IMG/VR virus record: IMGVR_UViG_3300018080_000022
Span: 1 to 57,047 of that record
Strand: one strand, 5' to 3'
DNA length: 57,047 bases
From: a virus
Lineage: Duplodnaviria; Caudoviricetes
Positions 14,927-31,875 of this stretch are shown here, in pieces. The position numbers and the translations under genes are program-made. The notes under the pieces were generated by a model that ran no database searches, was not told the DNA's origin, and saw only the letters and a list, made by a program, of their open reading frames with translations. How positions within the stretch are numbered: the first letter of the stretch is position 1; each line of letters starts with the position of its first letter.

Positions 14927-16987
14927 ATGGATGTGCCTAAGAAAACGCAGAAGCGAAAGAAGATAGTCACGACGGAAGAAATTGAGGGCGACGAGGCCGA
15001 GACAAAAATAGAAGAGGAAGAAGAGGAGCCCAAACGGAAAACAGAACTCCCATATGAAGTAGTCGAAATTCTAAACGGCGACAGACAGGAAGTGCCCCCC
15101 GACCTGGAAAACTGGTCGATGTGCATAATGCGTTTCAGCCCCAAATTTACACCCGACAATAAATTCGAGTTAATTACGGGCAAGATACGCGAAGTCGAAA
15201 CTTTAACCTCGTATAAAAATGTCGAGGATATAATTAGAAGGGAGCATCGCGGCGGTATTTACCACGTCAATGTTTTGAATGGCCTAAAGCAGGCCGCTAC
15301 CAGGGCGAAGATAGTCATCGAGGGCTTCCCAAAAGTGACAATGGCGGATATGCAGCATACCGCCGAAAAATACCCCGCCGTCAATGAGCAAGGCAAAAAA
15401 GAAGAAGGAGCCGAGTACTGGCGAAACAAGCGAGCCGAGTATGAAGCGAAGGCCGAGGCCGAAAAGGCCAAGGCGGATTACGAAAAAACCACGAAAAAGC
15501 TTCAGGATGACGACGAAGACGAAGAGGATATCGACATGAACTACCGCTCCCCTTTCGCGGTTCCCGGATTCCCGCAGCCCGGCTTCGAGCCTATAGACAG
15601 GAAGGCCCTCGAAGCCGAGCTTGAAAAGAAAATCCTCGACAGGTTCACTCGCGAAGAAGAGCTCAAGGAAAACCGCCGCGAGCTCAAGGAGATGCGAGAA
15701 GAGCTCCGCCGCCTGCGCGAAGAAGGGCTGAAAAAACCCGACGACAACGGGCTCAATATGAAAGACGTTCTTAAAATGATGAGCGACATGACAACGAAGC
15801 TCGTCGAAGCGAAAACCGCTCCGCCAGCGCCGCAATCCGAGGACAAGAAAATCGAAGCCTTCGCGACAATGCTCACCGGCGCTATGTCGAGCGTCAACTC
15901 GATGATGATGAACACCTTGCAGCAGACGGCCTCGGCGCAACAGCAAATTCTCATGGAAACCATCAAAAATGCAATGTCCCCGCCAGGCGACAAGGACTGG
16001 AAGCTCGAACTCATTGAAAAGGGCGCGGACACGGTGAAGGAGTTCGTCGGAAGCATAGTCGATGCCAACAAGAGCAAGCACGAAGTCCAGAAAAAACAAC
16101 TCGAAGTCATGGGAAGCGGCAAAATAAAGCCGATGATGTTGCCGAAGGGAATGATAAAGACCGGCAAGCCAGCCGCGCCAGCCCCGAGACCGCAACCGCC
16201 AAGACCCGCGACTGCCCCTGCATCAGCCGCCGCCGCGCCAGCCGCCCCCGCGCAGGCATCAGCCGCCCCACAGCCCGATGCGAATGCCCAGGAAATCTTC
16301 AAGCGCGCCGAGAAATTACAGCAGGAAGCGATAGCGGCATATCTGACGGGCACGAGCCCGGCGTTCTTCGCCCGCAAGACACTTGACATAGCGGGCCAGG
16401 AAGTTACGATGTTCTTGCGCGAAAGCCCGACCCTCGAAAGCCTTCGCAGCCTCGCTTTCGAGCAAAAAGGCGACGAAGGCGTCGCCGAGTTCGACAAGTA
16501 CATTACCAACAATGCACCGGCGCGGCAATGGGTAGAAACGTGGTTGCACGAAATCACGCTCAACTTCCGGCCCGTCGCCCCGGACGGCACGCCCATAGAA
16601 GAGCCCCAGGCCCCTGCGCCGCCGACACCTCCGGGAGCGGCCCAAGCCGCGCCGCAGTATCAACCGCCGATGCCGCCCGGCACGGAAATCGACGACGCCG
16701 ATTATGAAATAGAAGAGGAAGAGTTTGTCGATGTGGACGACTATGAAGCGCCGCTCGACTACGAAGCGCCGATGCTTACGCCGCCCCCGGTGACCTTCGC
16801 CGAGGATGCGCAGGTCACATTTTCTCCGCCCGATATCGAAAAAAATAAAAAAAATATCGACGGCCCGGAAAGCCCCGAGTCGTCAATGAGCGGCGAGCCG
16901 CAAACCCTTGTCTCGTCTGCACTTAAGACCGGCGACGGCAATGAAGCGGACGGCGGCGGCGCTGCGAAAAATACGCCCCCGAAGTAA
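14927..16987 (+). CDS. Large coiled-coil, Pro/Ala-rich protein; first gene of the virion arm
   Basis: Long ORF after GGAAGGGAG; charged coiled-coil, Met-rich and Pro-rich segments; start approximate. Confidence 0.75.
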   Translation: MDVPKKTQKRKKIVTTEEIEGDEAETKIEEEEEEPKRKTELPYEVVEILNGDRQEVPPDLENWSMCIMRFSPKFTPDNKFELITGKIREVETLTSYKNVEDIIRREHRGGIYHVNVLNGLKQAATRAKIVIEGFPKVTMADMQHTAEKYPAVNEQGKKEEGAEYWRNKRAEYEAKAEAEKAKADYEKTTKKLQDDDEDEEDIDMNYRSPFAVPGFPQPGFEPIDRKALEAELEKKILDRFTREEELKENRRELKEMREELRRLREEGLKKPDDNGLNMKDVLKMMSDMTTKLVEAKTAPPAPQSEDKKIEAFATMLTGAMSSVNSMMMNTLQQTASAQQQILMETIKNAMSPPGDKDWKLELIEKGADTVKEFVGSIVDANKSKHEVQKKQLEVMGSGKIKPMMLPKGMIKTGKPAAPAPRPQPPRPATAPASAAAAPAAPAQASAAPQPDANAQEIFKRAEKLQQEAIAAYLTGTSPAFFARKTLDIAGQEVTMFLRESPTLESLRSLAFEQKGDEGVAEFDKYITNNAPARQWVETWLHEITLNFRPVAPDGTPIEEPQAPAPPTPPGAAQAAPQYQPPMPPGTEIDDADYEIEEEEFVDVDDYEAPLDYEAPMLTPPPVTFAEDAQVTFSPPDIEKNKKNIDGPESPESSMSGEPQTLVSSALKTGDGNEADGGGAAKNTPPK

Positions 16988-17033
16988 CGATGGTCGAAAT
17001 TTTATTTGACTTCGCTTCGTGGGAGTGTATTCT

Positions 17034-17258
17034 ATGTCGCGTGACGATAAGCCCAAGCTCGACGACGTAGTTGACAAGGGGCTTGAGGCAATTGAAAATG
17101 AAGAAAGTATCCGAGACCTTAAGGCAAGGAAGGAGTTCCTTGGCGAAATAAAGCGTCATGGGTTGGCTATTTGGCGTGCTCTCGTCTTGTATGTTTTGAG
17201 GGAACACCCGAAGGAACAAGACACACATACGAAGACGACCCCGCGCCGGAAAAAGTAA
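17034..17258 (+). CDS. Small hypothetical protein
   Basis: GGAG RBS; fits the plus-strand operon. Confidence 0.55.
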   Translation: MSRDDKPKLDDVVDKGLEAIENEESIRDLKARKEFLGEIKRHGLAIWRALVLYVLREHPKEQDTHTKTTPRRKK

Positions 17259-17286
17259 GTCGCCTCCCTGGAGTCCCAGGCCCGCG

Positions 17287-17910
17287 ATGAACCAACAGCG
17301 TTCATGGCGGGCTTTCTCTTTAGGGATGGCGATGCCGATAAACGAACTTTGCACTACGATGGGAGATGGAACGCCGGTCAGAGTCCGGCGCATCCTTATC
17401 CCCAACGGCAATGCCGGAATAATGGTAAGCGCTGGCAAGATAGTCGAGCTTATCCGCGAGTATTCCGGCAACGAAGACCCCGCCTCGCAGACGCGCATCC
17501 GCTTCCTCGCCGAAGACATCACCCGCCCATGCCGTTCGAAGGACTACCTCTGCAACGTCCGTAAAATTTACGACTGGATGCTCAGGAACATCAAATGGGA
17601 CAGAGACCCGGACGGCAAAGAAATGCTCCGCTCGCCCATCGTCACGCTCGACCGCCGCGTCGGCGACTGCGACGACCATACCATTCTTATGGGCTCTCTG
17701 ATAAAGAGCATGGGAATTCCGGTGCGAATCGTATTAGTGGCGTCATATAAGCCCGAGGTCTTCAACCACGTCCTAATAGAAGCGCTTGTCCCGGTCGAAG
17801 GAAAAATGAAATGGATTGCGGTCGATACAACGCCGTTAAATGTAAACGGCAAGCTATTCCCGTTCGGCGTGAGGCCGCGAGCATACAAGTACAAGGTTCT
17901 GGAGGTATAA
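17287..17910 (+). CDS. Transglutaminase-like (papain-fold Cys-His-Asp) protein
   Basis: I.W.RDP.G.E.L.SP..TL....GDCDDH..L..SL..S.G, FNHV, W.AVDTT. Confidence 0.85.
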   Translation: MNQQRSWRAFSLGMAMPINELCTTMGDGTPVRVRRILIPNGNAGIMVSAGKIVELIREYSGNEDPASQTRIRFLAEDITRPCRSKDYLCNVRKIYDWMLRNIKWDRDPDGKEMLRSPIVTLDRRVGDCDDHTILMGSLIKSMGIPVRIVLVASYKPEVFNHVLIEALVPVEGKMKWIAVDTTPLNVNGKLFPFGVRPRAYKYKVLEV

Positions 17911-18708
17911 ATGCAATACAGGGAAAACCCGCTGGCATTGATACTTATCCCGATAGCGCTGCTTGCCGCGGGTGGAACGGCGGCGGCAATCGCGCTCAAA
18001 CGCCGGAAGAAAACGATGGCACCTTCCGGCCCGAGCGAACCGTCATATCCCTATGCCTCGCAGCCGACTATGGTTCCGTCGTCTTCGGAGCCCCCGGCCA
18101 ACGACCCCATGAAACAGATTCAGCAATTCCAGGACAAGTACGGGAAAACCGCACCGGCAGCGGCGTCGGCGGCAAAAAAGGCATGGGAAATACTCGTAAG
18201 TCCGCCGACCTCGGCCGAGAAAATAAAGGAAGCCGCCAAGGAGACCTCCGAACAAAAGGCCGCCATCGATAAGCTCGCGCTCGAAGTCAAACAGAGCGGC
18301 GGGAAACTGCCCGAAGGCGAGAAGATTCCCGGCATAGACGACCCGAGTCTTGAAACCGACAATGAAAAGACAGCCGCGTCGCCAGCCTCGGCGGCAGCGG
18401 GGGCCAAGCAGGCGGCCACGGGCGCATCCGCCGCCGCTACCGGCGCGAAGGTCTTAGGGGTTGGCCTCGGAACGGTGGCCCTTGTCGGGGCCGCGGTCGC
18501 GGTCGCGGTCGCCGGTTTCGAGGCATACCGCAGCCAGCAAAAACAGTTGAAGAAGCTTCACGCCGACTACAAGCTCTGGCGCGCGATGGCCGTGCAGTAT
18601 GTCACGCAGACGACTGACACAAACAAACACATCAAGGCAGTCCAGGGAGAAGTGGACTTCATGAAACAGGCTATACCGAAAATGCAGGCCGCTTTACAGG
18701 GAGCTTAA
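17911..18708 (+). CDS. Putative virion membrane protein (2 hydrophobic segments)
   Basis: N-terminal RENP then a TM helix; second TM near the C-terminus. Confidence 0.7.
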   Translation: MQYRENPLALILIPIALLAAGGTAAAIALKRRKKTMAPSGPSEPSYPYASQPTMVPSSSEPPANDPMKQIQQFQDKYGKTAPAAASAAKKAWEILVSPPTSAEKIKEAAKETSEQKAAIDKLALEVKQSGGKLPEGEKIPGIDDPSLETDNEKTAASPASAAAGAKQAATGASAAATGAKVLGVGLGTVALVGAAVAVAVAGFEAYRSQQKQLKKLHADYKLWRAMAVQYVTQTTDTNKHIKAVQGEVDFMKQAIPKMQAALQGA

Positions 18709-18710
18709 AG

Positions 18711-19019
18711 ATGCCGATGCAATATGTTAGGGTTGGGAAGCCAGCCGTCGATGGCCTCGGGAGCAACCGCAGCAAGCTCCGCAAGCACAGACGGCAAGCG
18801 TGGGCCTTGATGAACCTGCGACTCGACGAGTTCAACAAGGCAAAGGCAAAGCTCGAAGAACTGATGGCCGAGCACGAATTGCTCACCAAGCAGTTCAGCC
18901 TTTTGGCAAACCAGCTAAAGGCGAAGGGGCTCGACTTCGACCAGATTCGCGTTATAACCGGCGCTCCGAAGAGCGTCGTCGAGGCCAACATGAAAAAACA
19001 GGTCAAGCTAATCGCGTAA
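18711..19019 (+). CDS. Hypothetical coiled-coil virion-arm protein
   Basis: GGAG RBS; DGLGS motif. Confidence 0.65.
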   Translation: MPMQYVRVGKPAVDGLGSNRSKLRKHRRQAWALMNLRLDEFNKAKAKLEELMAEHELLTKQFSLLANQLKAKGLDFDQIRVITGAPKSVVEANMKKQVKLIA

Positions 19020-19030
19020 GGAGGCGACGG

Positions 19031-19261
19031 ATGAGAAGAGGAAGGTCGAAACTTCCGAGGGGGTATTACCTCGTGAAGACCGCCAAGCACGGCGGACTTG
19101 AGCTTGAGGATTCCATGCCCGCGCTAACCGGCATGGGCCAGGTGAGCGAAGAGGCGGTCGAAAAAGTCGAGGCCGGGCTAACCGCGGCGAAGGTCATCGG
19201 TTACGGCCTGCTCGGCGTCGTGGGATACTTCATCGTCAAGGCAATAGCCCGGAGTCAGTAA
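19031..19261 (+). CDS. Small membrane protein
   Basis: AAGGAGG RBS; TGMGQ motif; C-terminal TM. Confidence 0.65.
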   Translation: MRRGRSKLPRGYYLVKTAKHGGLELEDSMPALTGMGQVSEEAVEKVEAGLTAAKVIGYGLLGVVGYFIVKAIARSQ

Positions 19262-20241
19262 TGCCCTTTCACAGAAACGAAAGCGATTTGGCCTCGGATA
19301 TAAGAATGCACCGGCTCAACAGCGCGTATAAAAATGGCACGCGCCGCGAGCACGCGAGGCCATCTCAGTTCAATAGAGGCCCGCGGGCCACGATGACGCC
19401 GAAGGTCATCGCTAACAAAAACAGGGTCAAAAATGCGTTTAACTTCGAGCATCCGGCCAGGGATACGGAGCTCGGGGCATACAAGGAGGTAGGTATGATA
19501 AGGGGAAGAGTCAAAAGCTCATACAACCTGATGACCGGCAAGGGCGTCAAGTCGGTCAAGCAGATGGTTCTCACCGCCCAGGACAGCGGCCAGCCCGCGG
19601 GGGTAAGCGACTACGTGACGTTGCCCCGCCAGTTGGGCAGCTATGTCACCGTGCCCGAGGGCATGATGGGCGAGGTCACGGCGGAAGAACTGTGGAAGCG
19701 AGACCTCGAAGACCTCAGCAAGGATATTCGCGGCATGCACATGTTCACGACGAATAGCCAGGAAATCCGATACTACAACAAGGCGAAGACCCTCGTGGAT
19801 AACGGCAAGAAAATCTTCGCCAACAACCCGCAGATGTTAGCGGCCATAGCCCCGCTCAACGGCGAGCTCGTCAGGTGGCGAAACGACCGGGCGTGGGCCT
19901 TGACGCAGCAGCAAGGCACGGCCAACGACAAGAGCATCGGAAAAATCCAAGAGAGAATGGTCAACGCAATCAACTATGCCCGCACGGCGATGGGGATTGC
20001 GGCCATCCCAAGCGGCAGCATCCTGCCCGAGATGAACATTCCCAAGGGGCAGTTGCCGAACCTGCCGGGCGCGACGGGCACTCCGGAGCCGACACCGCCT
20101 GCGGTTCCGATTGCGCCGACCCCGGCTGAGAAGGCGCTTGCGCCGCAGTCATGGTTTCAGAAAAACAAAACGCTCGTTGCAGGGGCGGCGCTGCTCGCGA
20201 CGCTCTTAGGCGGATATGTCTGGTATCGCCAGAGGAGCTAA
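19261..20241 (+). CDS. C-terminally anchored membrane protein
   Basis: C-terminal TM (LVAGAALLATLLGGYVWY); GVSDYVTLP and LGSYVTVP motifs. Confidence 0.7.
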   Translation: MPFHRNESDLASDIRMHRLNSAYKNGTRREHARPSQFNRGPRATMTPKVIANKNRVKNAFNFEHPARDTELGAYKEVGMIRGRVKSSYNLMTGKGVKSVKQMVLTAQDSGQPAGVSDYVTLPRQLGSYVTVPEGMMGEVTAEELWKRDLEDLSKDIRGMHMFTTNSQEIRYYNKAKTLVDNGKKIFANNPQMLAAIAPLNGELVRWRNDRAWALTQQQGTANDKSIGKIQERMVNAINYARTAMGIAAIPSGSILPEMNIPKGQLPNLPGATGTPEPTPPAVPIAPTPAEKALAPQSWFQKNKTLVAGAALLATLLGGYVWYRQRS

Positions 20242-20595
20242 ATGGGAACTCCCGCATACATAAAGATAAACGGGAAGACGGTCGAGGGCGAGTGGATTTC
20301 GCCCGAGGAAGTTCCGTTCATAGCCAATCCGCGCGTGGCGAACACGGCGATGTTTCTTGCCGGTGCTGGCCTTGCGGCTCTCAAGGCGGTGCGCAATATT
20401 GCAAATGCTTCACTCAATCCGCCGCTGAAATCCAAGGTAGTGAGGGCGCTCCCGTGGGCATTCGCGGCGGGGTTGACCGCGGCGATAGCCCCGGCGCTCG
20501 GAAAGGCCAAGAACCCGGTTCGCATCGGTGCCGCGCTGTTGGGGCTCAAGGCGGTAAACGAGATTGTGAGAAAGCCCGAAGAGGAGAGGGCATAA
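20242..20595 (+). CDS. Small membrane protein of three NP-led hydrophobic segments
   Basis: ANP, LNP and KNP each precede a hydrophobic helix. Confidence 0.65.
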   Translation: MGTPAYIKINGKTVEGEWISPEEVPFIANPRVANTAMFLAGAGLAALKAVRNIANASLNPPLKSKVVRALPWAFAAGLTAAIAPALGKAKNPVRIGAALLGLKAVNEIVRKPEEERA

Positions 20596-21333
20596 ATGAC
20601 ATACAGACATAACAGAGCTTACCTGATAGGAAGTAACGAGAGGGCCGTAACCGTTACTTATGATGGGCTCGCAAAGATGTCTCAGGAAAACGCGCTCAAA
20701 GACCCGACATTTTCCGCGGCTTACACCTTGAGAAACCAGATGTCGGCCAGGCGCGACATAGTAGAAACGCTTGCCGCCGAGCTCGAAAAGCAGTACAGGG
20801 AAAAGACGATTGCGCCCGCCGATTATGTCGAAAGACTCAACAAGGCGGAGGCGCTTATCGATGCGTACAACTCCGACATAGCCGAAATGAACGTGGCGCT
20901 TGCGGCGGCGTTAAGCGATGTTCGCACGGAGACATTGAAGGCCCTTATTGACCAGGGCTATGAGCTTCCGCAGGAATGGCTTAAGCAAGCGGGATTGTCG
21001 GGAGTAGTAGTTCTCACTATCGCCGCCGTCGCGCTTATCGCGGCGATGACCGCGGGGATTGCGGTCGCCGCGCCGAAGATATCCGAAATTTTTGCGGCCA
21101 AGGAAAAAATTGAGCTCGAAAGAGAAAAGGTCGCCGCCGAGCTTGCAAAGACTGTTCTCGAAAAAGCTCCCGAAGGCGAAAAGGTGAAGTTCCTCGAAGC
21201 TATTGGCAAAGGACGGCCCCCGAGGATACGGGCGTGGTATGAATATCTTTTCTGGACGGCGCTGGCGGGAGCAACCGCCCTCACGGCGGTGAAGCTTGCT
21301 CCGATGGCGATTAAACCGAGAAGGAAAAAATAA
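20596..21333 (+). CDS. Membrane protein (coiled coil plus 2 TM)
   Basis: GLSG immediately before the first TM. Confidence 0.7.
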   Translation: MTYRHNRAYLIGSNERAVTVTYDGLAKMSQENALKDPTFSAAYTLRNQMSARRDIVETLAAELEKQYREKTIAPADYVERLNKAEALIDAYNSDIAEMNVALAAALSDVRTETLKALIDQGYELPQEWLKQAGLSGVVVLTIAAVALIAAMTAGIAVAAPKISEIFAAKEKIELEREKVAAELAKTVLEKAPEGEKVKFLEAIGKGRPPRIRAWYEYLFWTALAGATALTAVKLAPMAIKPRRKK

Positions 21334-22180: not shown

Positions 22181-22188
22181 GAGGGGAC

Positions 22189-25748: not shown

Positions 25749-26381
25749 ATGAACGAGCGAGAACTATACCACAAGCTCGCGGGCCTCGGCGACGTTCCCG
25801 AGGACAGGAATTGGTTTTGGCGCGAGGGTTTTCCCGAGCTTATGCGACTCAGCCTCGGTAGAGGCCACAAAAAAGACTGGCTCGGGAATGAAAAAGACAA
25901 CCTCGGGGCCATGATGCTCCGGCTTGCCGAAAACTACATCATGGCGCCGCAGAATGTCGTGCCCGCGTTTGCAGAGCCCCTGAAAATTACCACGCCTCCG
26001 GGCGACGGGCTCGAAATTCCGCCGAGTGGCGCTGCGCCTGGGCAGACATTTTATACCGGCGTAACATTTACGGTTCCCGAGAGCTCGGCGGCGATAATTA
26101 CCAACATTCACCAGGAGCTTGAAAGTCCGGGAGCTTACAACGATGTAAACATACGGCTATGGTACAGGGGCGGCCACAAGCAGTTCTGGAATCCGCGCAA
26201 GCCCGAGATAGACCCCGTGACTATCGTGGTTTTCGAAAAGGAAACCTTCGAGATTCAATGGGAGAACAACGGGCTCATAAGCCATTGGCTCAAGGCGGAG
26301 ATATTAGGTTATTGGTTCGGCGTTCCTAAGCCCGACAAGAGCCAGCGCGGGTTGACGGTGCCCACGCAATCACAAGGATAG
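25749..26381 (+). CDS. Beta-rich structural protein
   Basis: GLGD/NLGA leader, then alternating beta strands. Confidence 0.55.
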   Translation: MNERELYHKLAGLGDVPEDRNWFWREGFPELMRLSLGRGHKKDWLGNEKDNLGAMMLRLAENYIMAPQNVVPAFAEPLKITTPPGDGLEIPPSGAAPGQTFYTGVTFTVPESSAAIITNIHQELESPGAYNDVNIRLWYRGGHKQFWNPRKPEIDPVTIVVFEKETFEIQWENNGLISHWLKAEILGYWFGVPKPDKSQRGLTVPTQSQG

Positions 26382-26389: not shown

Positions 26390-27337
26390 ATGGGAACTGA
26401 GATAGTCAGAATACTGCCCGTGCAGGGAGTTTTCGTACCCCGAATTAGCCATGACTCCCAGGGAAACAGGGTGATTCCTCTTCTCGCGGGAGGGCAGAGC
26501 TACGACAGCGGGGTTTTTCAGGTTCGAGGCTATAACAAGCTCGACATCATCACGCGCTCCAACGTCAACGCAGATATCTTCGTATACATGGGGCCAGACC
26601 CCGTTGCGCTTGCGGCGATGGTTCCCGACGACAAGCGGGAGAAGGCGCGGTTTCCGTATGCCGAGCTCGCCATACCCAACGGCGACTTTCCGCCCGAGCA
26701 GTACAGCGTGCAGGTGAGCGGCGAATTCGCGCGTGTGGTGTATCGCAACAATACCATCGAGGCTCAGACGGTTTGGGATTACCAAATCAACCTCAAGCCC
26801 ATCGGCGAAGGACAATGTTTCCGGCAGTTCAATGAAGAGGATACCAACCCGCTTCAATTCCCGATATACCGATATCTTACCATGACGCCGGACTACCGGC
26901 TTCGCGTGGAAGTGGCGAGCGGCGGCAGTTCAGACCCGGTGAGCGTCCGCGGCGAGCAGGAAGTAGCCGTATGGGCGGCGAACAACGCGAGCCCTCTCGT
27001 GGGCAATTCGATTCCGGCCAACCCGGACGACGGCAGGTTCGCGATAGCATCCGCCGCGCTCCCGAGTATGGCTGGCTCGATTAAAGAATTTACCATATAC
27101 GCCGAAATACTACCCGGCCCTTCGGGCGCGGGCGCGGGTCATATAATAATCGAGGCCGAGTCCGCCGAAGGCGTCGCCCCGTGGGTCGAGTTCGACAGGC
27201 TTCCGGTCGCTTCCGGGCAAAGGATACTGAGGACATACAAGCTTCAGGCGCAATCCTATCGCGTTTATTTCCTCAACACGGGAGCCGCCCAGGTAACGGG
27301 GTTTTATGGTAATGTTTACATAAAACCGCAGACGTAA
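26390..27337 (+). CDS. Two-domain beta-sandwich protein (vertex/spike candidate)
   Basis: Two similar beta-rich halves (FARVVYRN and SYRVYFLN). Confidence 0.55.
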   Translation: MGTEIVRILPVQGVFVPRISHDSQGNRVIPLLAGGQSYDSGVFQVRGYNKLDIITRSNVNADIFVYMGPDPVALAAMVPDDKREKARFPYAELAIPNGDFPPEQYSVQVSGEFARVVYRNNTIEAQTVWDYQINLKPIGEGQCFRQFNEEDTNPLQFPIYRYLTMTPDYRLRVEVASGGSSDPVSVRGEQEVAVWAANNASPLVGNSIPANPDDGRFAIASAALPSMAGSIKEFTIYAEILPGPSGAGAGHIIIEAESAEGVAPWVEFDRLPVASGQRILRTYKLQAQSYRVYFLNTGAAQVTGFYGNVYIKPQT

Positions 27338-27347
27338 GGAGATTCAT

Positions 27348-27689
27348 ATGGGTGAGGAAATTATCGGCAGCGACAGCCTGAACATTATAGCCAACAATCA
27401 AGCCCTCGCAGGCGGCGGCAACATAGCTGGCGCGGTCGAAAACCTGCGAAACCACGCCTTTTACGGCGTATCGGTTTTCAGCACGCAGGCGGGCACGCTG
27501 AGCATCCAGTATCGCATGGCAGGCGGCGTCTTAAGGCACATAAACGGCTCGCCATTCGTGATAGCGGCGAATTCCGCCTTCGACAGGGTGTTTCGCAAGA
27601 CGCGCGAAGAATACCAGGTAACATATACCGATACGTCGCTCGTGGCGAGCAATGTCGATATCGAGACGCTTAGAACAAACGTGAACTAA
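27348..27689 (+). CDS. Small beta-sandwich structural protein
   Basis: AAGGAG RBS; YQVTYTD strand like the preceding gene. Confidence 0.55.
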   Translation: MGEEIIGSDSLNIIANNQALAGGGNIAGAVENLRNHAFYGVSVFSTQAGTLSIQYRMAGGVLRHINGSPFVIAANSAFDRVFRKTREEYQVTYTDTSLVASNVDIETLRTNVN

Positions 27690-27699
27690 GGAGAACATA

Positions 27700-28041
27700 A
27701 TGGCCAAAACCGCTTTAGAATGGGTCGAGCGGGTTTTCAAGCCCGTCATACGAGATGGCAGGATAATCATCGCCGAGGGCAAAAGAAAAATCAAGGTCGG
27801 CGGCAGGGTAGAGGAGCGCCCGACCGGGGCCGGTATTTTTGTGGAGGTTGACACGTTCGCATATATCTTCAAGGAAGAAATTCTTGCTGGCGGCGAGGAT
27901 GCCGAGATAGCCGCACGGATAGCGACCAAGAAGGTCAAGCGGGCCGTCGTCAACCCCGAGACGGGCGAGCAGGAAGACAAAGAGTTCGATGTCGGCTACG
28001 GCGATTTTATTGAAAAGATGACGGAGAAAGGGCTGTTTTAA
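27700..28041 (+). CDS. Hypothetical protein
   Basis: AAGGAG RBS. Confidence 0.6.
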   Translation: MAKTALEWVERVFKPVIRDGRIIIAEGKRKIKVGGRVEERPTGAGIFVEVDTFAYIFKEEILAGGEDAEIAARIATKKVKRAVVNPETGEQEDKEFDVGYGDFIEKMTEKGLF

Positions 28042-28661
28042 TGGGGCCTCGCGTCTACCCGAACAACATAGAAGTCGAGGTAAACGCCGTACCGATAGCG
28101 ATTAGGCCAGCGTTCAACCTCATCGCCGGTGCCGGGATTGCGCTCGCGGGCGTTGACAACCCCGGCGCGGACAGGGTAGACGTTACGGTGAGCACCATCG
28201 CGGGCTCCGTCCGAGACATCTTCATAGCGGCGACCGACTACAATTCGAGCAACCCATCGCCTTACCGCAGCCGCAACGTCGGCGGCACGGGAGCTCATGA
28301 CTTCACTTTCTACGTGCCGACCGACTTCCAGATAGCCAACCTCGTTGCCCTTGAACTTATCTATTTTAATGCGGGGGCCAATGTCGGCGTGACGGTTCAG
28401 ATAGACTTTGCGAGCGAATATTGCCTTAACGGGCAGGCGAAGAACTTCAACTTCGTCAACAATCCCGACCCCGCGGGCGCGGTGGGTTCGTACCTTGTAG
28501 GTGCGGTAAATGTGAGGAGCTTCTTCGACCTAACCAATCTCGCGGGTACGAACATGTATCCTAACCTCGCGGCGGGGCACCTATGCGGCTTGAATATAAA
28601 TCACAGGGGAATAGGCGGCGCTATCAATTACGAAGGCATTCGCCTCGCTTACACGGTGTGA
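28041..28661 (+). CDS. Beta-rich structural/spike protein
   Basis: Gly/Asn-rich beta pattern; coupled start. Confidence 0.55.
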   Translation: MGPRVYPNNIEVEVNAVPIAIRPAFNLIAGAGIALAGVDNPGADRVDVTVSTIAGSVRDIFIAATDYNSSNPSPYRSRNVGGTGAHDFTFYVPTDFQIANLVALELIYFNAGANVGVTVQIDFASEYCLNGQAKNFNFVNNPDPAGAVGSYLVGAVNVRSFFDLTNLAGTNMYPNLAAGHLCGLNINHRGIGGAINYEGIRLAYTV

Positions 28662-28662
28662 C

Positions 28663-28908
28663 ATGGAATACCAATATGAAAGAGAGCTAATCGACGGGGT
28701 TTACAACCTCCCCAATCCGTATCGTGATATCGACCCGGCGACGGGTAACCCTATTCTACCGTGCAAGGATATCTATGACGCGATTGGCATAATTGTAATG
28801 ATAGAAGGTTGCTCAAGTGATTTCTGCGTGACGACGCCCGTCGAGCTCGACGCGGGCCAGAAGGCGGCGATGGACACGGCGATAGCGAATCATAAAAACA
28901 ACTTATAG
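28663..28908 (+). CDS. Hypothetical protein
   Basis: Fits the operon. Confidence 0.55.
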   Translation: MEYQYERELIDGVYNLPNPYRDIDPATGNPILPCKDIYDAIGIIVMIEGCSSDFCVTTPVELDAGQKAAMDTAIANHKNNL

Positions 28909-28915
28909 GTGAGAC

Positions 28916-29305
28916 ATGGCAGCACAAGTATACCCGCCCGGCTTCGAAGAAATGCAGTATATATTCACCATTCCAGGCGATTTGGTCGTCGGCGACGACC
29001 TGACGTTGTGGCTCCCCGTGGGCCAGGAAGTCCAGGCGTTTGAAGCGCTCGCAGTTATAAAGACCGTTCCGACCGGGGCGGCGGTAACGATTGAGATAGA
29101 GAAGTCGAGCAACTTCGGCGGCGCGTGGACTACTGTAGTTTCATCGGCAGACCTGCAAATCGCAGCCGCGGCGCAGTCGGGGGTTAAAACCGGCCTCGCC
29201 GTAAAGCTTCTTAAGAATGACGTGCTTCGAATAAACATAGACCAGATAGGCAGCGGCGTAGCAGGCGCGGATTTAACGGTTGGGTTGAGAGTAAACAATG
29301 GCTAA
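28916..29305 (+). CDS. Beta-sandwich spike-associated domain protein
   Basis: PTGA...I.I......D.L.I.IDQIGS..AGADL.V pattern seen in viral structural proteins. Confidence 0.55.
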   Translation: MAAQVYPPGFEEMQYIFTIPGDLVVGDDLTLWLPVGQEVQAFEALAVIKTVPTGAAVTIEIEKSSNFGGAWTTVVSSADLQIAAAAQSGVKTGLAVKLLKNDVLRINIDQIGSGVAGADLTVGLRVNNG

Positions 29306-29711
29306 GTACATTTTTATAGCGATGGTCAAGGACAACGGCAATTACAAGGCCGGTGATGTCGTTTCCATCCGCGAGCCGGGTTCGAAGGTGACCGCCCTTG
29401 AAAGGAAGCTTTTTATATGTACGGAAGTGGAGTTGACAAAAACGGAAGCCCAAACCTTTATAGCCAAACTTCGACCGCAGGCAAATTATTCTCACAAAAC
29501 AGAGCCGATTCCCCCCGTTACCGCCGACTTGGCAGTAGCTCAAAAATGGTGCGACGATGTTGAAGCGGGGCGGGCGAAGCTTCCCGTGAATGGCGTTCAA
29601 ACCAATTTAAGCAACATTGAGATAGTTGCGAGACTGTCCGACTTGCAGGATGAGAAGAAGGAAGTCCCGGTTTTTACCGTAGACAAAACGACTATAAGCT
29701 TGAAGGTGTAG
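29298..29711 (+). CDS. Hypothetical protein
   Basis: Fits the operon. Confidence 0.55.
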   Translation: MAKYIFIAMVKDNGNYKAGDVVSIREPGSKVTALERKLFICTEVELTKTEAQTFIAKLRPQANYSHKTEPIPPVTADLAVAQKWCDDVEAGRAKLPVNGVQTNLSNIEIVARLSDLQDEKKEVPVFTVDKTTISLKV

Positions 29712-29713
29712 CG

Positions 29714-30694
29714 ATGGCGACGTATTATATGCCCGACGATTTTGCCGATATAGCGACATTTATTGCCGCAGCGGTGTCGGGCGCAGACAAGCTTATTGTT
29801 CGCGACGGCACGTGGACGGGGGCCAATAACCGTGGGCTTTCTCCCGGCAAAAATGTTGTTATCGAGAGCGAGAATGGATGGGTTAATTGCATACTCGACG
29901 CTGAAAATCTCGACCGCCACTTCGTTTTTTCGGCTGGCGAATCCACGGCGTTTGTAGTAGATGGATTCCAGATTATAAACGGCAATCCGGGCGGAACTAG
30001 CTTCGGAGGCTCGATTGTCGTTACAAACGGCGCACCCAAATTCCAGAATATAGTCTTTTTCGACAACTCGACGAACGGAAATCATGGCGGTTGTATCTTT
30101 TGTTCGGGCGGCAGCGCAGACCCGTCATTCTGGAATTGCCTGTTTTTTAACAATGTTGCAGGCGGCGGTGGAAAAGGCGGTTGCTGCTATGCGTATAATG
30201 CCGGGTGCAATCCCGGCTTTGCAAGTTGCACGATAACCGCAAATTCGGCTCCGGGCGGAAATGGCGGAGGACTTGCCGGTGATTCGTGGGGCGGTGCTTA
30301 TATCTACAACACCATTCTTTGGGGGAATACGGCAGGCACATCAGCCCCGAACTTCTATCTCGGCTCAAGTCCCGTTGGCCGCGCCTACAACTCCTGTTAT
30401 GACCTGGTTGGAATGATAGGTAACTTTATAAGCAATACCGCGTGCGTTTTTACAGACCCGCTCTTGGTCGCCGGGGGCTTGGGCAATTATTATCTAAGCC
30501 ATATCGCGGCGGGCCAGGGCGCGGACAGCCCTTGCATCGACGCGGGCAACCCCGCTTACGCATTGGCGGATTGGAACACCTTAACGACGAGGACGGATGA
30601 CGCTTTGGATGTCGCCCCGGTTGACATAGGCTTTCATTGGCCGCTGAGCGGCTCCGGAGTCGCCAATACTATGATGATGCAGATGGTGCCTTAG
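29714..30694 (+). CDS. Right-handed beta-helix (pectin-lyase-like) protein, probable receptor-binding spike
   Basis: Repeated F..N....GG.I coils, NTILWGN, DPL.V and SPCIDAG motifs. Confidence 0.75.
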   Translation: MATYYMPDDFADIATFIAAAVSGADKLIVRDGTWTGANNRGLSPGKNVVIESENGWVNCILDAENLDRHFVFSAGESTAFVVDGFQIINGNPGGTSFGGSIVVTNGAPKFQNIVFFDNSTNGNHGGCIFCSGGSADPSFWNCLFFNNVAGGGGKGGCCYAYNAGCNPGFASCTITANSAPGGNGGGLAGDSWGGAYIYNTILWGNTAGTSAPNFYLGSSPVGRAYNSCYDLVGMIGNFISNTACVFTDPLLVAGGLGNYYLSHIAAGQGADSPCIDAGNPAYALADWNTLTTRTDDALDVAPVDIGFHWPLSGSGVANTMMMQMVP

Positions 30695-30710: not shown

Positions 30711-30992
30711 GTGGAAGAGGTACAGAAAAACGGAAAAGTGGTGAGCCTGTCATTGTCGGTGGTGGTTATACTGATAACGGCCTTCGCGACATTGCTAACC
30801 TCCTCGCTCCTGGCCTACAGCGACGCTTGCGCCGACATCCGGGCCAACAGCGAGAACATAAAGTCGATAAAAGAGCAGATGACCGCGCAGTTACGCAACA
30901 TCGACGGCAAGATAGACCTCGTGCGCGAGGATGTGAAGTCATTAAATGACAAGCTCGATAGAATCTGGCCGTGGTCTCTCAAGGAGAAATAA
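30711..30992 (+). CDS. TM plus coiled-coil protein (holin-like)
   Basis: N-terminal TM then heptad repeats. Confidence 0.5.
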   Translation: MEEVQKNGKVVSLSLSVVVILITAFATLLTSSLLAYSDACADIRANSENIKSIKEQMTAQLRNIDGKIDLVREDVKSLNDKLDRIWPWSLKEK

Positions 30993-31217
30993 ATGCCAGA
31001 GCAGGAAGGCTACAAAGCGGTATTAAAGGCCAACAACCTGAAAGGTGCGCTGGTCTCTGTCCGCGAAGCCTCTGAGCATCTGGAAAGGGCGGTCGCTCCC
31101 GCCCTTCATAAAAAATGTAAGGAGCTCATCGCAGATATAAAGCAACATGCCTTCGACGAGCTCCACCGCGAATACCCGGAACTATGGAAAGGATTTAGTG
31201 ATGAAGTGGTTGACTGA
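30993..31217 (+). CDS. Hypothetical protein
   Basis: AGGAG RBS. Confidence 0.55.
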   Translation: MPEQEGYKAVLKANNLKGALVSVREASEHLERAVAPALHKKCKELIADIKQHAFDELHREYPELWKGFSDEVVD

Positions 31218-31536
31218 AAATTACATGGTAGTCGTGTTTCTCGTGACAACGCTTATCTCCGTCATTACCGCGCTTCTCAAGCACATGGGCAAGAAGAACG
31301 CCGCTGAGGCGCTTGAGAAGGTCAAGGACATGCTGCATCAAACCTTCGGCAATGTCGAGGCTTTGAAGGTGCAATGGAAGAAGAGCGGCATGGAGGACAA
31401 ATACGGGCACATAGGCGAAATCTTCGCGTCGATAAACAGCGAAGCGCAGCTTGAAGATATTCTTAAAGTCGCGTATACTGAGTGGCAGAAGGAGCGCGAG
31501 AAGAACTGGAGGCCGGTTAAAATCGAGGAAAAATGA
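31201..31536 (+). CDS. N-terminal TM protein (lysis-module candidate)
   Basis: MKWLTENY followed by a hydrophobic helix. Confidence 0.55.
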   Translation: MKWLTENYMVVVFLVTTLISVITALLKHMGKKNAAEALEKVKDMLHQTFGNVEALKVQWKKSGMEDKYGHIGEIFASINSEAQLEDILKVAYTEWQKEREKNWRPVKIEEK

Positions 31537-31578
31537 AAATATACTTTGACAGCGAAACAGGTTTCAAGGAGGTTAAGT

Positions 31579-31875
31579 ATGAAGAGGCTTTGCTTGATAG
31601 CGATATTGGCGGTTATCTGCACGGGCTGCATCCCGCTGATGCACAAGACGGTGGCGGAGCAAACGGTGAGGATGGACAAGAACCTTCACGAGCTCCTTCC
31701 CGATTATCGCCTCGTGCTGAATGACGAGCTCGCGGCGGTGAAAGGCATGGATGACGGCGAGGAGAAGACGAAGCTTCTCGAAGATATCAGCCATGACCTT
31801 CTCCTTCTCGATGCCACGCTGATGCTCAGCGAGGACATGCGAAAGACCGCGGACGTGACGCTGGAAGGAAAATGA
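31579..31875 (+). CDS. Lipoprotein
   Basis: MKRLCLIAILAVICTG-C lipobox-like signal; AGGAGG RBS. Confidence 0.7.
   Translation: MKRLCLIAILAVICTGCIPLMHKTVAEQTVRMDKNLHELLPDYRLVLNDELAAVKGMDDGEEKTKLLEDISHDLLLLDATLMLSEDMRKTADVTLEGK

What the first reader, a model, noticed from the sequence alone, without database searches (positions are those of the whole stretch)
14927..31875. 57-kb tailless virus with twin candidate single-jelly-roll capsid genes and no recognisable packaging ATPase
Seen: a complete circle with no terminase, portal, HK97 capsid or tail motifs that I can recognise. The only Walker A I find is in the primase-helicase. The virion arm has several membrane proteins, a very basic protein, two tandem ~207-aa paralogs with strong RBSs and further beta-rich ORFs. 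Known: Halopanivirales use two SJR capsid proteins plus an ATPase, portogloboviruses use an SJR capsid and nucleoprotein without an ATPase, and both have much smaller genomes. Inference: a large bacterial, membrane-containing SJR virus lineage that co-assembles around a condensed circular genome.
Basis: partly seen in the sequence, partly recalled or inferred. Interest (0 to 1): 0.85.

Follow-up and report, generated by a model that had tools for sequence, protein, structure and literature searches.

The report
Tailless jelly-roll phage without packaging ATPase
This is a complete 57-kb virus genome, probably of a bacterium, whose shell seems to be built from two sister jelly-roll proteins like those of the salt-lake phage SSIP-1, and which shows no gene for the motor that most DNA viruses of this size use to fill their shell.

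Summary
The window is a whole virus record of 56,924 bp plus a 123-nt terminal repeat. HMM scans of 94 ORFs and six-frame scans find no terminase, portal, HK97 capsid, tail gene or packaging ATPase.

The tandem paralogs (23460-24080 and 24170-24793, 51% identical) fold as jelly rolls. AF2 gave pLDDT 70.5. The best solved match is the capsid protein of Sulfolobus polyhedral virus 1 (Z 8.9), followed by capsid proteins of HHIV-2, SH1, HCIV-1 and P23-77.

Their family is large: 928 cluster representatives, with no Pfam or PHROG model. A profile comparison links it to gp45/gp46 of Salisaeta phage SSIP-1 (hhalign 75%, E 2.5e-5). SSIP-1 is a described tailless, membrane-containing phage with two capsid proteins and a 44-kb genome. 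A transglutaminase-like virion protein and the gene order are shared as well.

SSIP-1 carries an AAA_25 ATPase. The window and five terminal-repeat-bounded relatives (16-56 kb) carry none.

Best reading: a distant, ATPase-less relative of SSIP-1 in a broad, undescribed lineage. Co-assembly of the capsid around DNA condensed by basic, membrane-anchored proteins is inferred, not shown.

The parts
1..123 (.). Terminal direct repeat; the second copy is at 56925-57047. It marks a complete genome of 56,924 bp.
   Evidence: D1 (100% identity); (IMG/VR class DTR, CheckV 100)
14927..16987 (+). First late gene. A ~686-aa acidic protein with coiled-coil and Pro/Ala/Gln-rich low-complexity regions. Possible scaffold or internal protein. 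It is the positional counterpart of SSIP-1 ORF33, which also lies upstream of the transglutaminase-like gene.
   Evidence: kept in L004, L005; SSIP-1 ORF33 is similar in character; no family hit. The role is inferred.
17287..17910 (+). Transglutaminase-like (papain-fold) protein, a homolog of the SSIP-1 structural protein gp34. It is conserved across the lineage.
   Evidence: Pfam Transglut_core 1.9e-12; blastp to gp34 1.35e-14; to L008 3.4e-19, L009 2.5e-15, L011 5.8e-14
17911..21333 (+). Block of small proteins, mostly basic and several with membrane-spanning segments: 17911-18708, 18711-19019, 19261-20241, 20242-20595, 20596-21333. Candidate components of an internal membrane.
   Evidence: hydropathy and pI; sequences; conserved in L004/L005. 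The role is inferred.
21335..22180 (+). Very basic 281-aa protein (pI 10.5). Candidate DNA-condensing protein.
   Evidence: 70% identical in L004 and L005. The role is inferred.
22189..23376 (+). A 395-aa protein in three parts: an N-terminal half with basic repeats (2 x 106-nt repeat), then 2-3 membrane helices, then an acidic tail with a 12-aa tandem repeat. It always sits directly upstream of the capsid gene. Candidate link between DNA and membrane.
   Evidence: (D3, D12); counterparts in L003-L006 and, with the same three-part build, in L008/L009
23460..24080 (+). Paralog A, 206 aa. Single jelly-roll protein and candidate major capsid protein.
   Evidence: AF2 pLDDT 70.5, pTM 0.69; SPV1 capsid Z 8.9, 133 aa, 3.4 A; family of 928 representatives; profile link to SSIP-1 gp46
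24170..24793 (+). Paralog B, 207 aa, 51% identical to A. Candidate second major capsid protein.
   Evidence: both copies are kept in L003, L004, L005 and L006; the A and B orthologs form sister clades
24957..25724 (+). A 255-aa protein with a Pro-rich N-terminal arm and a conserved C-terminal domain. It is found directly after the capsid gene across the lineage. Candidate penton or minor capsid protein.
   Evidence: alignment A2; the A2 profile hits the ORF after the capsid gene in L008 (3.2e-11), L009 (5.6e-11) and L011 (0.034). The fold was not tested.
25749..26381 (+). Conserved 210-aa acidic protein of the virion block.
   Evidence: alignment A3; present in L003-L006. The fold was not tested.
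26390..27337 (+). A 315-aa protein with two beta-sandwich domains (about residues 30-137 and 231-313). It evolves faster than its neighbours, and the L006 homolog carries a ~300-aa repeat insertion. Candidate vertex or spike-base protein.
   Evidence: AF2 pLDDT 53.3, a low-confidence model; best match is the pentameric XepA, Z 11.8 but rmsd 16.1; insertion seen
27348..30694 (+). Variable block of small acidic ORFs and a Gly-rich 326-aa protein (29714-30694) whose sequence looks like a beta-helix. Candidate host-recognition parts.
   Evidence: partly absent or replaced in L004/L005; no family hit; a Beta_helix protein sits at the matching place in L011. Inferred.
30711..31875 (+). Lysis-like cassette: a membrane plus coiled-coil protein (30711-30992), a small ORF, a membrane protein (31147-31536), and a lipoprotein-like protein whose signal ends in Cys (31546-31875).
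   Evidence: weak Rz-family hit 0.0063; conserved in L004/L005. Inferred.
31872..38223 (+). Two large basic multi-domain proteins (643 aa and 1187 aa, the latter with DUF7007 and DUF7249) plus two small ORFs. They may be virion-delivered 'polyvalent' proteins, like SSIP-1 gp43.
   Evidence: Pfam 2.7e-18 and 6.1e-09; SSIP-1 gp43 is a 2319-aa structural protein with MTase and ParB_N domains. The analogy is inferred.
6987..9965 (-). Primase-helicase. It holds the only P-loop-like motif in the genome.

Best explanation
The window is the complete genome of a tailless virus, most likely of a diderm bacterium. Its capsid is built from two paralogous single-jelly-roll proteins, A and B. [quoted passage not shown]

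It belongs to a large, so far unannotated lineage with three signature genes. One is the jelly-roll capsid gene, present in one or two copies. The second, directly upstream of it, encodes a protein with a basic part, membrane helices and an acidic tail. The third is a transglutaminase-like virion protein.

Shown: the genome is complete; the paralogs have a jelly-roll fold; the family is large; there is a profile link to SSIP-1 and shared gene order; no recognisable terminase, portal, HK97 capsid or P-loop packaging ATPase is present here or in five relatives.

Inferred: A and B form mixed pseudo-hexameric capsomers on an icosahedral shell over an internal membrane carrying the many small membrane proteins. 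The 255-, 210- and 315-aa proteins supply pentons and vertex parts. The variable block supplies spikes.

Inferred with less confidence (about 0.45): DNA is not pumped into a preformed shell. Instead it is condensed by the two very basic proteins, one of which is anchored in the membrane, and is enclosed as the membrane and shell assemble, as proposed for SPV1.
For: (1) Completeness: a 123-nt exact terminal repeat; DTR class and CheckV 100.

(2) Fold of paralog A: AF2 with 20 sequences gave pLDDT 70.5 and pTM 0.69, all-beta with one helix. The ESM Atlas's own model has pTM 0.71.
- In the second-look alignment of 988 chains, the only match with Z>=8 is SPV1 capsid 6oj0_A (Z 8.9, 133 aa, 3.4 A). 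The next rows score 7.2.
- In the search of 48,161 chains, the only match with Z>=8 is SPV1 (8.2). It is followed by HHIV-2 (7.8), HCIV-1 (6.7), P23-77 VP17 (6.2) and VP16 (6.1). SH1 (7.1) and PRD1 P3 (6.8) appear.
- The nearest named clusters in the Atlas are the PM2 P2 and PRD1 P3 capsid families, at 0.75-0.77. That is a lead only.

(3) Family size: a profile of 20 sequences finds 928 representatives at E<=1e-3 and 252 at E<=1e-10, nearly all full-length and 190-280 aa. Of 150 members, 0 hit PHROGs. Pfam gives only 3 stray single-member hits.

(4) Link to SSIP-1:
- hhalign of the 150-member profile against gp46 + P0028 + gp45 gives Prob 75.1%, E 2.5e-5, over 157 columns.
- hmmsearch gives gp46 E 1.9e-4.
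- gp45 and gp46 are adjacent paralogous structural proteins of 210 and 211 aa (26% identical, E 1e-12).
- The transglutaminase-like proteins match at 1.35e-14.
- The gene order is similar: low-complexity protein, TGase-like protein, membrane proteins, capsid pair, then a ~255-aa protein.
- Reviews describe SSIP-1 as tailless, with an internal membrane, T=49, a circular 44-kb genome and two capsid protein types (passages read in PMC6356626, PMC6260650, PMC4958249, PMC5332951).

(5) No tailed-phage genes: 0 such hits in 94 window ORFs and in 86 ORFs of four distant relatives. Terminase_6N matches 0 of 5 relatives' whole records.

(6) No ATPase: six-frame scans of the window are negative. FtsK_SpoIIIE and AAA_25 match 0 of 5 relatives' records, all of which are bounded by terminal repeats. 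The same scan does find SSIP-1 gp40 at 6.4e-13, which serves as the positive control. The Walker A scan of all fetched loci finds a convincing P-loop only in gp40.

(7) Conservation: both paralogs and their neighbours keep the same order in four lineages at 45-83% identity.
Against: The fold scores are middling. The tool notes that models without a clear match typically reach a best Z of 7-8. Cellular jelly rolls (PHM 7.2, GOLD 6.9), a phage cement protein (KHP40, 7.1) and a tail-fibre domain (7.1) score close behind SPV1. Foldseek against the PDB found nothing at E<=1e-3.

The SSIP-1 link is weak as sequence evidence. The hhalign probability is 75%, not above 95%. With the narrow 20-sequence profile it was only 6.8%. 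gp45 alone is not significant. I could not confirm that the best BFVD hit, I1ZBH9 (211 aa, E 3.2e-5), is SSIP-1 gp46.

Which SSIP-1 proteins are the major capsid proteins comes from no text I could read. The original paper (Aalto et al. 2012) is not held.

Only 2 of about 30 late proteins were folded, and one of those poorly. An HK97-fold protein or an unusual ATPase could hide among the rest.

The Atlas labels the neighbouring clusters mostly 'Uroviricota', on the few members that carry a label.

SSIP-1, the one characterised relative, does carry an ATPase, so its absence here might be a failure of detection.

There is no direct evidence of a virion, of lipid or of a host. The only host hint is a 6.5-kb contig binned into an Omnitrophota MAG.
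Confidence: 0.7

Rival explanations
1. It is the same kind of virion (tailless, jelly-roll shell), but DNA is packaged by an ATPase that the scans miss. Candidates are a highly divergent or non-P-loop late protein, the P-loop-like domain of the primase-helicase, or a host translocase.
For: SSIP-1 has an AAA_25 protein among its structural proteins. Sphaerolipoviruses and double-jelly-roll viruses share packaging ATPases (abstract of bioRxiv 10.1101/741942; passages of PMC8812541). The primase-helicase carries 'GTGKGK'. About two thirds of the late ORFs have no assigned fold.
Against: Canonical Walker A appears in no plausible gene of the window. P-loop family scans are negative in six frames here and in 5 of 5 relatives, with a working positive control. 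SPV1 and FLiP are accepted cases without packaging ATPases (passage of PMC8812541).
Confidence: 0.3
2. It is a very divergent tailed phage. Its terminase, portal, HK97 capsid and tail genes are too diverged for HMMs, and the paralogs are decoration, cement or fibre proteins.
For: Jelly-roll cement and tail-fibre domains score about Z 7 against the model. The Atlas labels neighbouring clusters mostly Uroviricota. The replication arm has ordinary phage genes such as YopX, DUF3850 and a Dam methylase. The BFVD matches of the 315-aa model are mostly tail or host-specificity proteins, though at TM 0.2-0.3.
Against: No terminase appears in six frames here or in 5 relatives, although terminase is the best-conserved gene of tailed phages. 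No ORF above 331 aa lies on the - strand apart from the primase-helicase. The large + strand ORFs are low-complexity or multi-domain basic proteins. The relatives are as small as 15.7-16.6 kb and are bounded by terminal repeats; one has a protein-primed-type polymerase and inverted repeats. The link to SSIP-1, which reviews describe as tailless, also argues against it. The late block holds many membrane proteins.
Confidence: 0.1
3. It is not an icosahedral virus. It could be a pleomorphic or enveloped virus, or a plasmid-like element, whose jelly-roll proteins are envelope, adhesin or carbohydrate-binding proteins.
For: There are many membrane proteins and no ATPase. Jelly rolls are common in cellular carbohydrate-binding proteins (PMC8812541). 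No virion has been seen.
Against: The best structural matches are overwhelmingly capsid proteins. There is a lysis-like cassette and a spike-like variable block. The kinship with SSIP-1 points the other way. Terminal repeats at discrete sizes in six records suggest packaged genomes.
Confidence: 0.05

Closest known systems
[quoted passage not shown]
   Same: Bacterial virus with a large genome for a tailless phage (43.8 kb). It has two adjacent paralogous structural proteins of about 210 aa (gp45, gp46), linked by profile to the window's paralogs. It has a homologous transglutaminase-like structural protein. A coiled-coil, low-complexity protein opens the late block. It has a huge multi-domain structural protein (gp43). 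The gene order is similar.
   Different: Sequence similarity is near the limit of detection: only 1 of 30 window late proteins matches by BLAST. SSIP-1 has an AAA_25 ATPase (gp40), an integrase, a resolvase and a GH108 lysin; the window has none of these. SSIP-1 proteins are acidic, fitting its halophilic host, whereas the window has very basic proteins. In a quick tree the capsid gene duplications are separate events.
Sulfolobus polyhedral virus 1 (Portogloboviridae)
   Same: It gives the best solved structural match to paralog A (Z 8.9 and 8.2). It has a single-jelly-roll capsid protein and no packaging ATPase (passage of PMC8812541). The single-copy relatives L008-L011 resemble its one-capsid-gene state.
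   Different: It has an archaeal host and, from recall, a genome of about 20 kb. There is no sequence similarity. Its nucleoprotein was not compared here. The window has two capsid paralogs.
Halopanivirales / Helvetiavirae (P23-77, IN93, SH1, HHIV-2, HCIV-1)
   Same: They have two single-jelly-roll capsid proteins encoded side by side and an internal membrane, and they are tailless (PMC4958249, PMC5332951, PMC8812541). Their capsid proteins match the model at Z 6.1-7.8.
   Different: Their two capsid proteins differ in size and build: VP16 has one barrel and VP17 has two stacked barrels (PMC4958249). Here the two are equal-sized close paralogs. They have a conserved packaging ATPase, which was not found here. 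Their genomes are smaller: HHIV-2 is 30 kb (PMC6260650).
Double-jelly-roll phages (PRD1, PM2, FLiP)
   Same: They are tailless with an internal membrane and vertical jelly rolls. PRD1 P3 matches at Z 6.8. The PM2 P2 and PRD1 P3 families are the nearest named Atlas clusters. Relative L009 has a protein-primed-type polymerase and inverted terminal repeats, like tectiviruses.
   Different: Their capsid protein is one chain with two barrels. No such protein was found here: the two-domain 315-aa protein did not match any of them. According to PMC8812541, prokaryotic members are under 20 kb.

Membership tests
SSIP-1-like viruses (unclassified; one described member) | Two adjacent, paralogous structural proteins of about 210 aa (gp45/gp46) | tested here: met
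   The window has 206- and 207-aa paralogs, 51% identical, 90 nt apart. SSIP-1 gp45/gp46 are 26% identical, E 1e-12.
SSIP-1-like viruses (unclassified; one described member) | Homology of those proteins to gp45/gp46 | tested here: inconclusive
   hhalign of the 150-member profile against the gp46 family gives Prob 75.1%, E 2.5e-5, over 157 columns. hmmsearch gives gp46 1.9e-4 and gp45 0.55. The narrow profile gave only 6.8%. This is suggestive but not decisive.
SSIP-1-like viruses (unclassified; one described member) | Transglutaminase-like structural protein (gp34) | tested here: met
   blastp 1.35e-14, 31% over 99 aa. Both hit Transglut_core.
SSIP-1-like viruses (unclassified; one described member) | AAA_25 ATPase among the structural proteins (gp40) | tested here: not met
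   There is no match to PF13481 or to gp40 in six frames. The positive control on SSIP-1 gave 6.4e-13.
SSIP-1-like viruses (unclassified; one described member) | Tailless icosahedral virion with an internal membrane | not testable with these tools
   Only gene content is available: several predicted membrane proteins.
Halopanivirales (Helvetiavirae) | Two vertical single-jelly-roll capsid proteins | tested here: inconclusive
   The jelly-roll fold is supported, with Z 6.1-7.8 to HHIV-2, SH1, HCIV-1 and P23-77 proteins. Orientation in the shell cannot be tested, and there is no sequence similarity.
Halopanivirales (Helvetiavirae) | Conserved packaging ATPase next to the capsid genes | tested here: not met
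   No FtsK_SpoIIIE, Pox_A32 or AAA_25 match in six frames. No Walker A in any late ORF.
Portogloboviridae | Single-jelly-roll capsid protein of the SPV1 VP4 type | tested here: inconclusive
   It is the best solved match, and the only one with Z>=8 (8.9 over 133 aa at 3.4 A; 8.2). Identity is only 7-8%, and Z is close to the tool's background range.
Portogloboviridae | No packaging ATPase | tested here: met
   for the statement that SPV1 lacks one, see the passage of PMC8812541
Portogloboviridae | Archaeal (Sulfolobales) host | not tested
   The host is unknown. Shine-Dalgarno sites, the lipoprotein/Rz-like cassette, the XRE/LexA-type regulators and an Omnitrophota-binned contig point to bacteria. 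This is an inference.
Caudoviricetes (tailed phages) | Large terminase subunit | tested here: not met
   No PHROG or Pfam hit in 94 ORFs. Terminase_6N is absent in six frames. Only one terminase family was scanned in six frames.
Caudoviricetes (tailed phages) | HK97-fold capsid protein and portal | tested here: inconclusive
   No HMM hit. The two folded proteins are beta-sandwiches, not HK97 folds. The other late proteins were not folded.
Bamfordvirae (double-jelly-roll viruses) | Double-jelly-roll capsid protein | tested here: inconclusive
   The 315-aa protein has two beta-sandwich domains, but the model is poor (pLDDT 53.3) and no double-jelly-roll capsid protein is among its top 50 matches.

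The most novel reading that the evidence does not exclude
The window belongs to a broad, overlooked lineage of bacterial viruses. The lineage has at least 928 capsid-protein clusters. Its complete genomes range from 15.7 kb (linear, protein-primed type) to 57 kb (circular). Its shell protein is a single jelly roll nearest to SPV1 and the two-capsid-protein viruses.

On this reading the lineage packages DNA without any ATPase, by condensing it on basic, membrane-anchored proteins. It has duplicated its capsid gene more than once. It therefore holds, side by side, the one-gene and two-gene stages that have been proposed for the origin of Helvetiavirae. It would merit at least a new family or order, with SSIP-1 as its only cultured outlier.
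Probability: 0.35. Interest if true: 0.9.

Novelty: new variant of a known kind. Interest (0 to 1): 0.78.

Why it matters
Tailless, membrane-containing phages are rarely isolated. [quoted passage not shown]

This genome and its relatives give SSIP-1 a large family, and they give a capsid-protein profile that neither Pfam nor PHROGs holds. Automatic pipelines mislabel these viruses or call them incomplete: CheckV gives 9-38% for genomes that have terminal repeats.

The lineage bears on an open question in virus evolution, namely how shells made of two jelly-roll proteins arose from shells made of one, and whether ATP-driven packaging came later (PMC8812541). The lineage contains both one-copy and two-copy members. 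Apart from SSIP-1, it shows no ATPase, even at 57 kb, which is about three times the size of SPV1. A 57-kb genome enclosed without a motor would be unusual and can be tested.

Tried and rejected
- Complex prediction of paralog A (13-row alignment) with paralog B (11 rows): no answer. Median score 0.25, below the mark of 0.32; the three runs gave 0.47, 0.02 and 0.25. This is evidence neither way.
- tblastn of paralog A against 50,697 phage records at E<=10: no match.
- PDB sequence search with the 150-member profile: only a chance-level hit, Cry7Ca1 at E 0.86.
- phmmer of the 323-aa protein (82-1053, - strand) against the PDB: nothing relevant. Its 'HGKT' is not a canonical P-loop.
- NCBIfam on 24 proteins: only the primase and a weak transglutaminase hit.
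- ESM Atlas on the 255-aa protein: only unnamed viral clusters, and no Atlas model.
- BFVD search with the poor 315-aa model: many generic beta-sandwich tail or host-specificity hits at TM 0.2-0.3. I give this no weight.
- hhalign of the 255-, 210- and 315-aa family profiles against SSIP-1 late proteins. The best results were 255-aa family vs ORF55 at E 0.02 over 7 columns and vs gp47 at E 0.026 over 36 columns. These are not significant given about 100 comparisons.
- hhalign of the ORFs upstream of the capsid gene in L008-L011 against the capsid profile: no similarity. Those relatives therefore have one copy, not a diverged pair.
A 23-member subset was used instead.
- The motif CTGGCGACGC is not enriched: 11 matches against 6.6 expected.
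- The identity of BFVD entry I1ZBH9 could not be established.
- The original SSIP-1 paper (PMC3344969) is not held, and supplements are closed. Which SSIP-1 proteins are major, and what its authors say of gp40, rests on reviews and on my inference.
- Literature searches for 'SSIP-1-like' gave 0 papers. 'Salisaeta icosahedral phage 1' gave 20 papers, of which I saw the listing and read passages of 7. Helvetiavirae/jelly-roll/metagenome terms gave 4 papers. Portogloboviridae terms gave 17 papers. None of them describes metagenomic relatives of SSIP-1.

Full report
**What is there.** The window is a whole virus record: one contig of 57,047 nt. Its first 123 nt repeat exactly at its end (D1). The source classes it as having direct terminal repeats, and CheckV rates it 100% complete.

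Genes run on the - strand in 1-14.9 kb and 38.6-57 kb, and on the + strand in 14.9-38.2 kb.

The - strand arms hold ordinary phage replication and nucleotide-metabolism genes:
- a primase-helicase
- a Dam methylase
- ThyX
- YopX
- DUF3850
- a T4 endonuclease V-like glycosylase
- a radical-SAM/SPL-like protein
- NUDIX and DUF1643 proteins
- several HTH regulators

There is one tRNA-Ser gene.

**Checking the absence claims.** None of 31 + strand ORFs and none of 63 - strand ORFs hits a terminase, portal, HK97 capsid, tail, or packaging-ATPase family in PHROGs or Pfam. NCBIfam adds nothing for 24 of them.

Six-frame scans of the record found nothing at E<=10 for AAA_25, FtsK_SpoIIIE, Pox_A32, Terminase_6N, Phage_capsid or SSIP-1 gp40. 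Control genomes did respond to the five Pfam-family scans; the gp40 protein query had no such control.

The canonical Walker A motif occurs in no plausible gene. The primase-helicase has only 'SQGTGKGK'.

The only family hits in the late arm are a transglutaminase-like core in 17287-17910 (1.9e-12) and DUF7007/DUF7249 in the 1187-aa protein.

**The paralogs.** The ORFs 23460-24080 and 24170-24793 encode proteins of 206 and 207 aa that are 51% identical. They are still 70-82% alike in DNA blocks. Each follows a GGAGG-type ribosome-binding site.

A word-indexed search found only 20 relatives, all unnamed. With that alignment, AF2 gave pLDDT 70.5 and pTM 0.69: an all-beta protein with one helix. 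The ESM Atlas holds its own model of the same sequence, with pTM 0.71.

Structure searches gave these results:
- Foldseek against the PDB found nothing at E<=1e-3. Its list is nonetheless almost entirely small viral jelly-roll capsid proteins. The SPV1 capsid has probability 1.00 at E 0.01.
- The aligner run on 48,161 representative chains gave one match with Z>=8: SPV1 (8.2; 138 aa; 3.4 A). It was followed by HHIV-2 (7.8), HCIV-1 (6.7), and P23-77 VP17 (6.2) and VP16 (6.1).
- The second look at Foldseek's top 988 chains again gave one match with Z>=8: SPV1 6oj0_A (8.9; 133 aa; 3.4 A). The next rows scored 7.2. SH1 scored 7.1 and PRD1 P3 scored 6.8.

These scores lie near the tool's stated background for unmatched models. 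Cellular jelly rolls (PHM, GOLD), a phage cement protein and a fibre domain come close behind. I therefore take the fold as established, and the capsid role as likely but not proven by structure alone.

**A much larger family.** An exhaustive profile search found 928 cluster representatives at E<=1e-3. Of these, 252 are at E<=1e-10 and 12 at E<=1e-30. Nearly all are full-length matches of 190-280 aa.

Of 150 members, none hits a PHROG. Pfam gives three unrelated single-member hits. The family is thus large and undescribed in those libraries.

**The link to SSIP-1.** The best BFVD match of the model was an unnamed 211-aa protein, I1ZBH9 (E 3.2e-5). That made me recall Salisaeta icosahedral phage 1, and I fetched its record.

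SSIP-1 has two adjacent structural proteins, gp45 (210 aa) and gp46 (211 aa). They are paralogs of each other (26% identical, E 1e-12). I could not confirm that I1ZBH9 is gp46.

Independent tests gave the following:
- The narrow profile against gp46 gave only E 0.0053 and probability 6.8%, although conserved N-terminal motifs aligned.
- The 150-member profile against gp46 + P0028 + gp45 gave probability 75.1% and E 2.5e-5 over 157 columns.
- hmmsearch gave gp46 E 1.9e-4.
- The window's transglutaminase-like protein matches the SSIP-1 structural protein gp34 at 1.35e-14.
- In both genomes that gene follows a coiled-coil, low-complexity protein and precedes membrane proteins, the capsid pair and a ~255-aa protein.

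Reviews describe SSIP-1 as tailless, with an internal membrane, T=49, about 100 nm across, with a circular 44-kb genome and two capsid protein types. [quoted passage not shown] The original paper is not held. That gp45 and gp46 are the major proteins is therefore my inference.

**Relatives.** Four closer lineages (L001/L002/L004, L003, L005, L006) keep both paralogs and their neighbours in the same order, at 45-83% identity.

Four distant IMG/VR genomes (L008-L011) have one capsid-family gene each. In L008 and L009 the ORF just upstream has a strongly basic N-terminus, membrane helices and an acidic repeat tail. That is the same build as the window's 395-aa protein.

The 255-aa family's profile hits the ORF just downstream of the capsid gene in L008 (3.2e-11) and L009 (5.6e-11). 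The transglutaminase-like protein is present in L008, L009 and L011.

None of 86 ORFs in these loci hits a terminase, portal or HK97 capsid family. L009 has a type-B polymerase of the protein-primed kind (PF03175, 3.9e-21) and a lysozyme. L010 and L011 have SLT lysins.

All five IMG/VR relatives have terminal repeats. Four have direct repeats (55.5, 16.6, 33.9 and 35.6 kb). L009's record (15.7 kb) has inverted repeats. None matches FtsK_SpoIIIE, AAA_25 or Terminase_6N at E<=1. The same scan finds SSIP-1 gp40 at 6.4e-13.

A Walker A scan of all ORFs of 100 aa or more in every fetched locus finds a convincing P-loop only in gp40.

A quick tree places the A orthologs and the B orthologs of the window, L003, L004 and L005 as sister clades. 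The careful search did not finish, the tree has long branches, and it is midpoint-rooted. SSIP-1 gp45/gp46/P0028 form a separate clade. This suggests separate duplications.

**Other late proteins.** The 315-aa protein gave a poor model (5 sequences; pLDDT 53.3). It has two beta-sandwich domains at moderate confidence. Its best match is the two-domain PBSX protein XepA (Z 11.8, but rmsd 16.1), followed by generic sandwiches. No HK97 or double-jelly-roll capsid protein appears in the top 50.

This protein diverges faster than its neighbours. In L006 it carries a ~300-aa repeat insertion. Both facts fit an exposed vertex part.

**How it most likely works.** Two steps are shown:
- The genome is complete, with a jelly-roll pair of capsid-like fold.
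- A conserved module is shared with a characterised tailless, membrane-containing phage.

The following steps are inferred:
- A and B form mixed pseudo-hexamers over a lipid core that carries the small membrane proteins.
- The 255-, 210- and 315-aa proteins and the variable block form the vertices and spikes.
- The transglutaminase-like protein rides in the virion, either as a cell-wall peptidase or as a maturation protease.
- The membrane/lipoprotein cassette at 30.7-31.9 kb serves lysis of a diderm host.

The boldest inference concerns packaging. No motor is detectable in six terminal-repeat-bounded genomes. A membrane-anchored basic protein always sits next to the capsid gene, and in the window and its close relatives a second very basic protein lies just upstream. 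I therefore propose condensation of the DNA on these proteins and enclosure during assembly, as is held for SPV1, which lacks a packaging ATPase (PMC8812541). I put this at about 0.45, because SSIP-1 does have an ATPase and absence of a match is weak evidence.

**Comparison and novelty.** The virus works like the two-capsid-protein, internal-membrane viruses. It fails the ATPase criterion of Halopanivirales and of SSIP-1. It has no double-jelly-roll protein. It differs from portogloboviruses in its probable host domain, its size and its capsid gene copy number.

I file it as a new variant of a known kind: a distant, ATPase-less relative of SSIP-1 and the largest genome of this kind that I know of.

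My searches found no description of metagenomic relatives of SSIP-1. The library lacks many subscription papers, and supplements were closed.

Noticed in passing
window 21335-23376, 17911-18708, 31872-38223; L008 9263-9910; L009 9208-9906: The dipeptide Asn-Pro is over-represented: 45 against 18.9 expected in the late proteins, 11 against 2.4 in the 1187-aa protein, and 6 against 1.2 in the 643-aa protein. A short N-terminal motif, 'hydrophobic-x-N-P-(P/R/K)', sits at residues 6-9 of the 265-, 281- and 395-aa proteins. It is kept in their homologs and in the basic proteins of L008 and L009. It may be a cutting or targeting site for the conserved transglutaminase-like protein. The - strand genes also show about 1.9-fold enrichment, so part of this is compositional.
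   Followed up: partly
window 34244-34274 and 38563-38593: A 31-nt inverted repeat (90% complementary) brackets the 124-aa and 1187-aa (DUF7007/DUF7249) genes. Its core, CTGGCGACGC, recurs exactly at 18376, 38386 and 46087, but is not enriched overall (11 against 6.6 expected with one mismatch).
   Followed up: partly
window 7038-7236 (- strand gene 6987-9965): The primase-helicase ends in three copies of a ~22-aa repeat containing ADPASNPATPQ. The DNA copies are 78-98% alike.
   Followed up: no
window 22396-22633 and 23178-23249: The 395-aa protein holds a 2 x 106-nt repeat (85% alike) encoding basic 44-aa units, and a 2 x 36-nt tandem repeat (92% alike) encoding DYVELPYTAGMG in its acidic tail. 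L008's counterpart has a similar acidic repeat (DDGMSAYV).
   Followed up: partly
L006 4110-5960: The homolog of the 315-aa protein is 616 aa long. It carries an insertion of about 300 aa made of repeats such as 'YVYAGL..SPAQVIKID', which look like propeller blades, after the first strand. It is followed by three fibre-like genes that share N-termini (6313-9015, 9529-10638, 10646-11737).
   Followed up: no
L009 (IMG/VR record of 15,658 nt): A small relative with inverted terminal repeats and a protein-primed-type DNA polymerase B (PF03175, 3.9e-21). It carries the same capsid family, the basic membrane protein and the transglutaminase-like protein. The capsid module therefore travels with very different replication modules.
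   Followed up: partly
IMG/VR records behind L008-L011: CheckV rates these genomes, which are bounded by terminal repeats, only 9-38% complete. ESM Atlas neighbours of the capsid protein are mostly labelled Uroviricota. Automatic tools seem to misjudge this lineage for lack of references.
   Followed up: no
window 5080-6027 (-), 49663-50034 (-), 56085-56780 (-), 38623-39576 (-): The genome carries a radical-SAM protein like spore photoproduct lyase (2.6e-07), a pyrimidine-dimer glycosylase (5.4e-29), ThyX and a Dam methylase. Having two UV-damage repair genes may hint at a sunlit habitat.
   Followed up: no
window 42285-43280 (-): A 331-aa protein with four WG-containing beta repeats (PF14903, 4.1e-55) lies among the early genes. 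Its role is unknown.
   Followed up: no
L012 (WJKZ01000027.1, 6,547 nt): A short contig binned into an Omnitrophota MAG carries the capsid pair (82% identical) and the 315-aa homolog. It is probably a viral contig caught by binning, so it is only a weak hint at the host.
   Followed up: no
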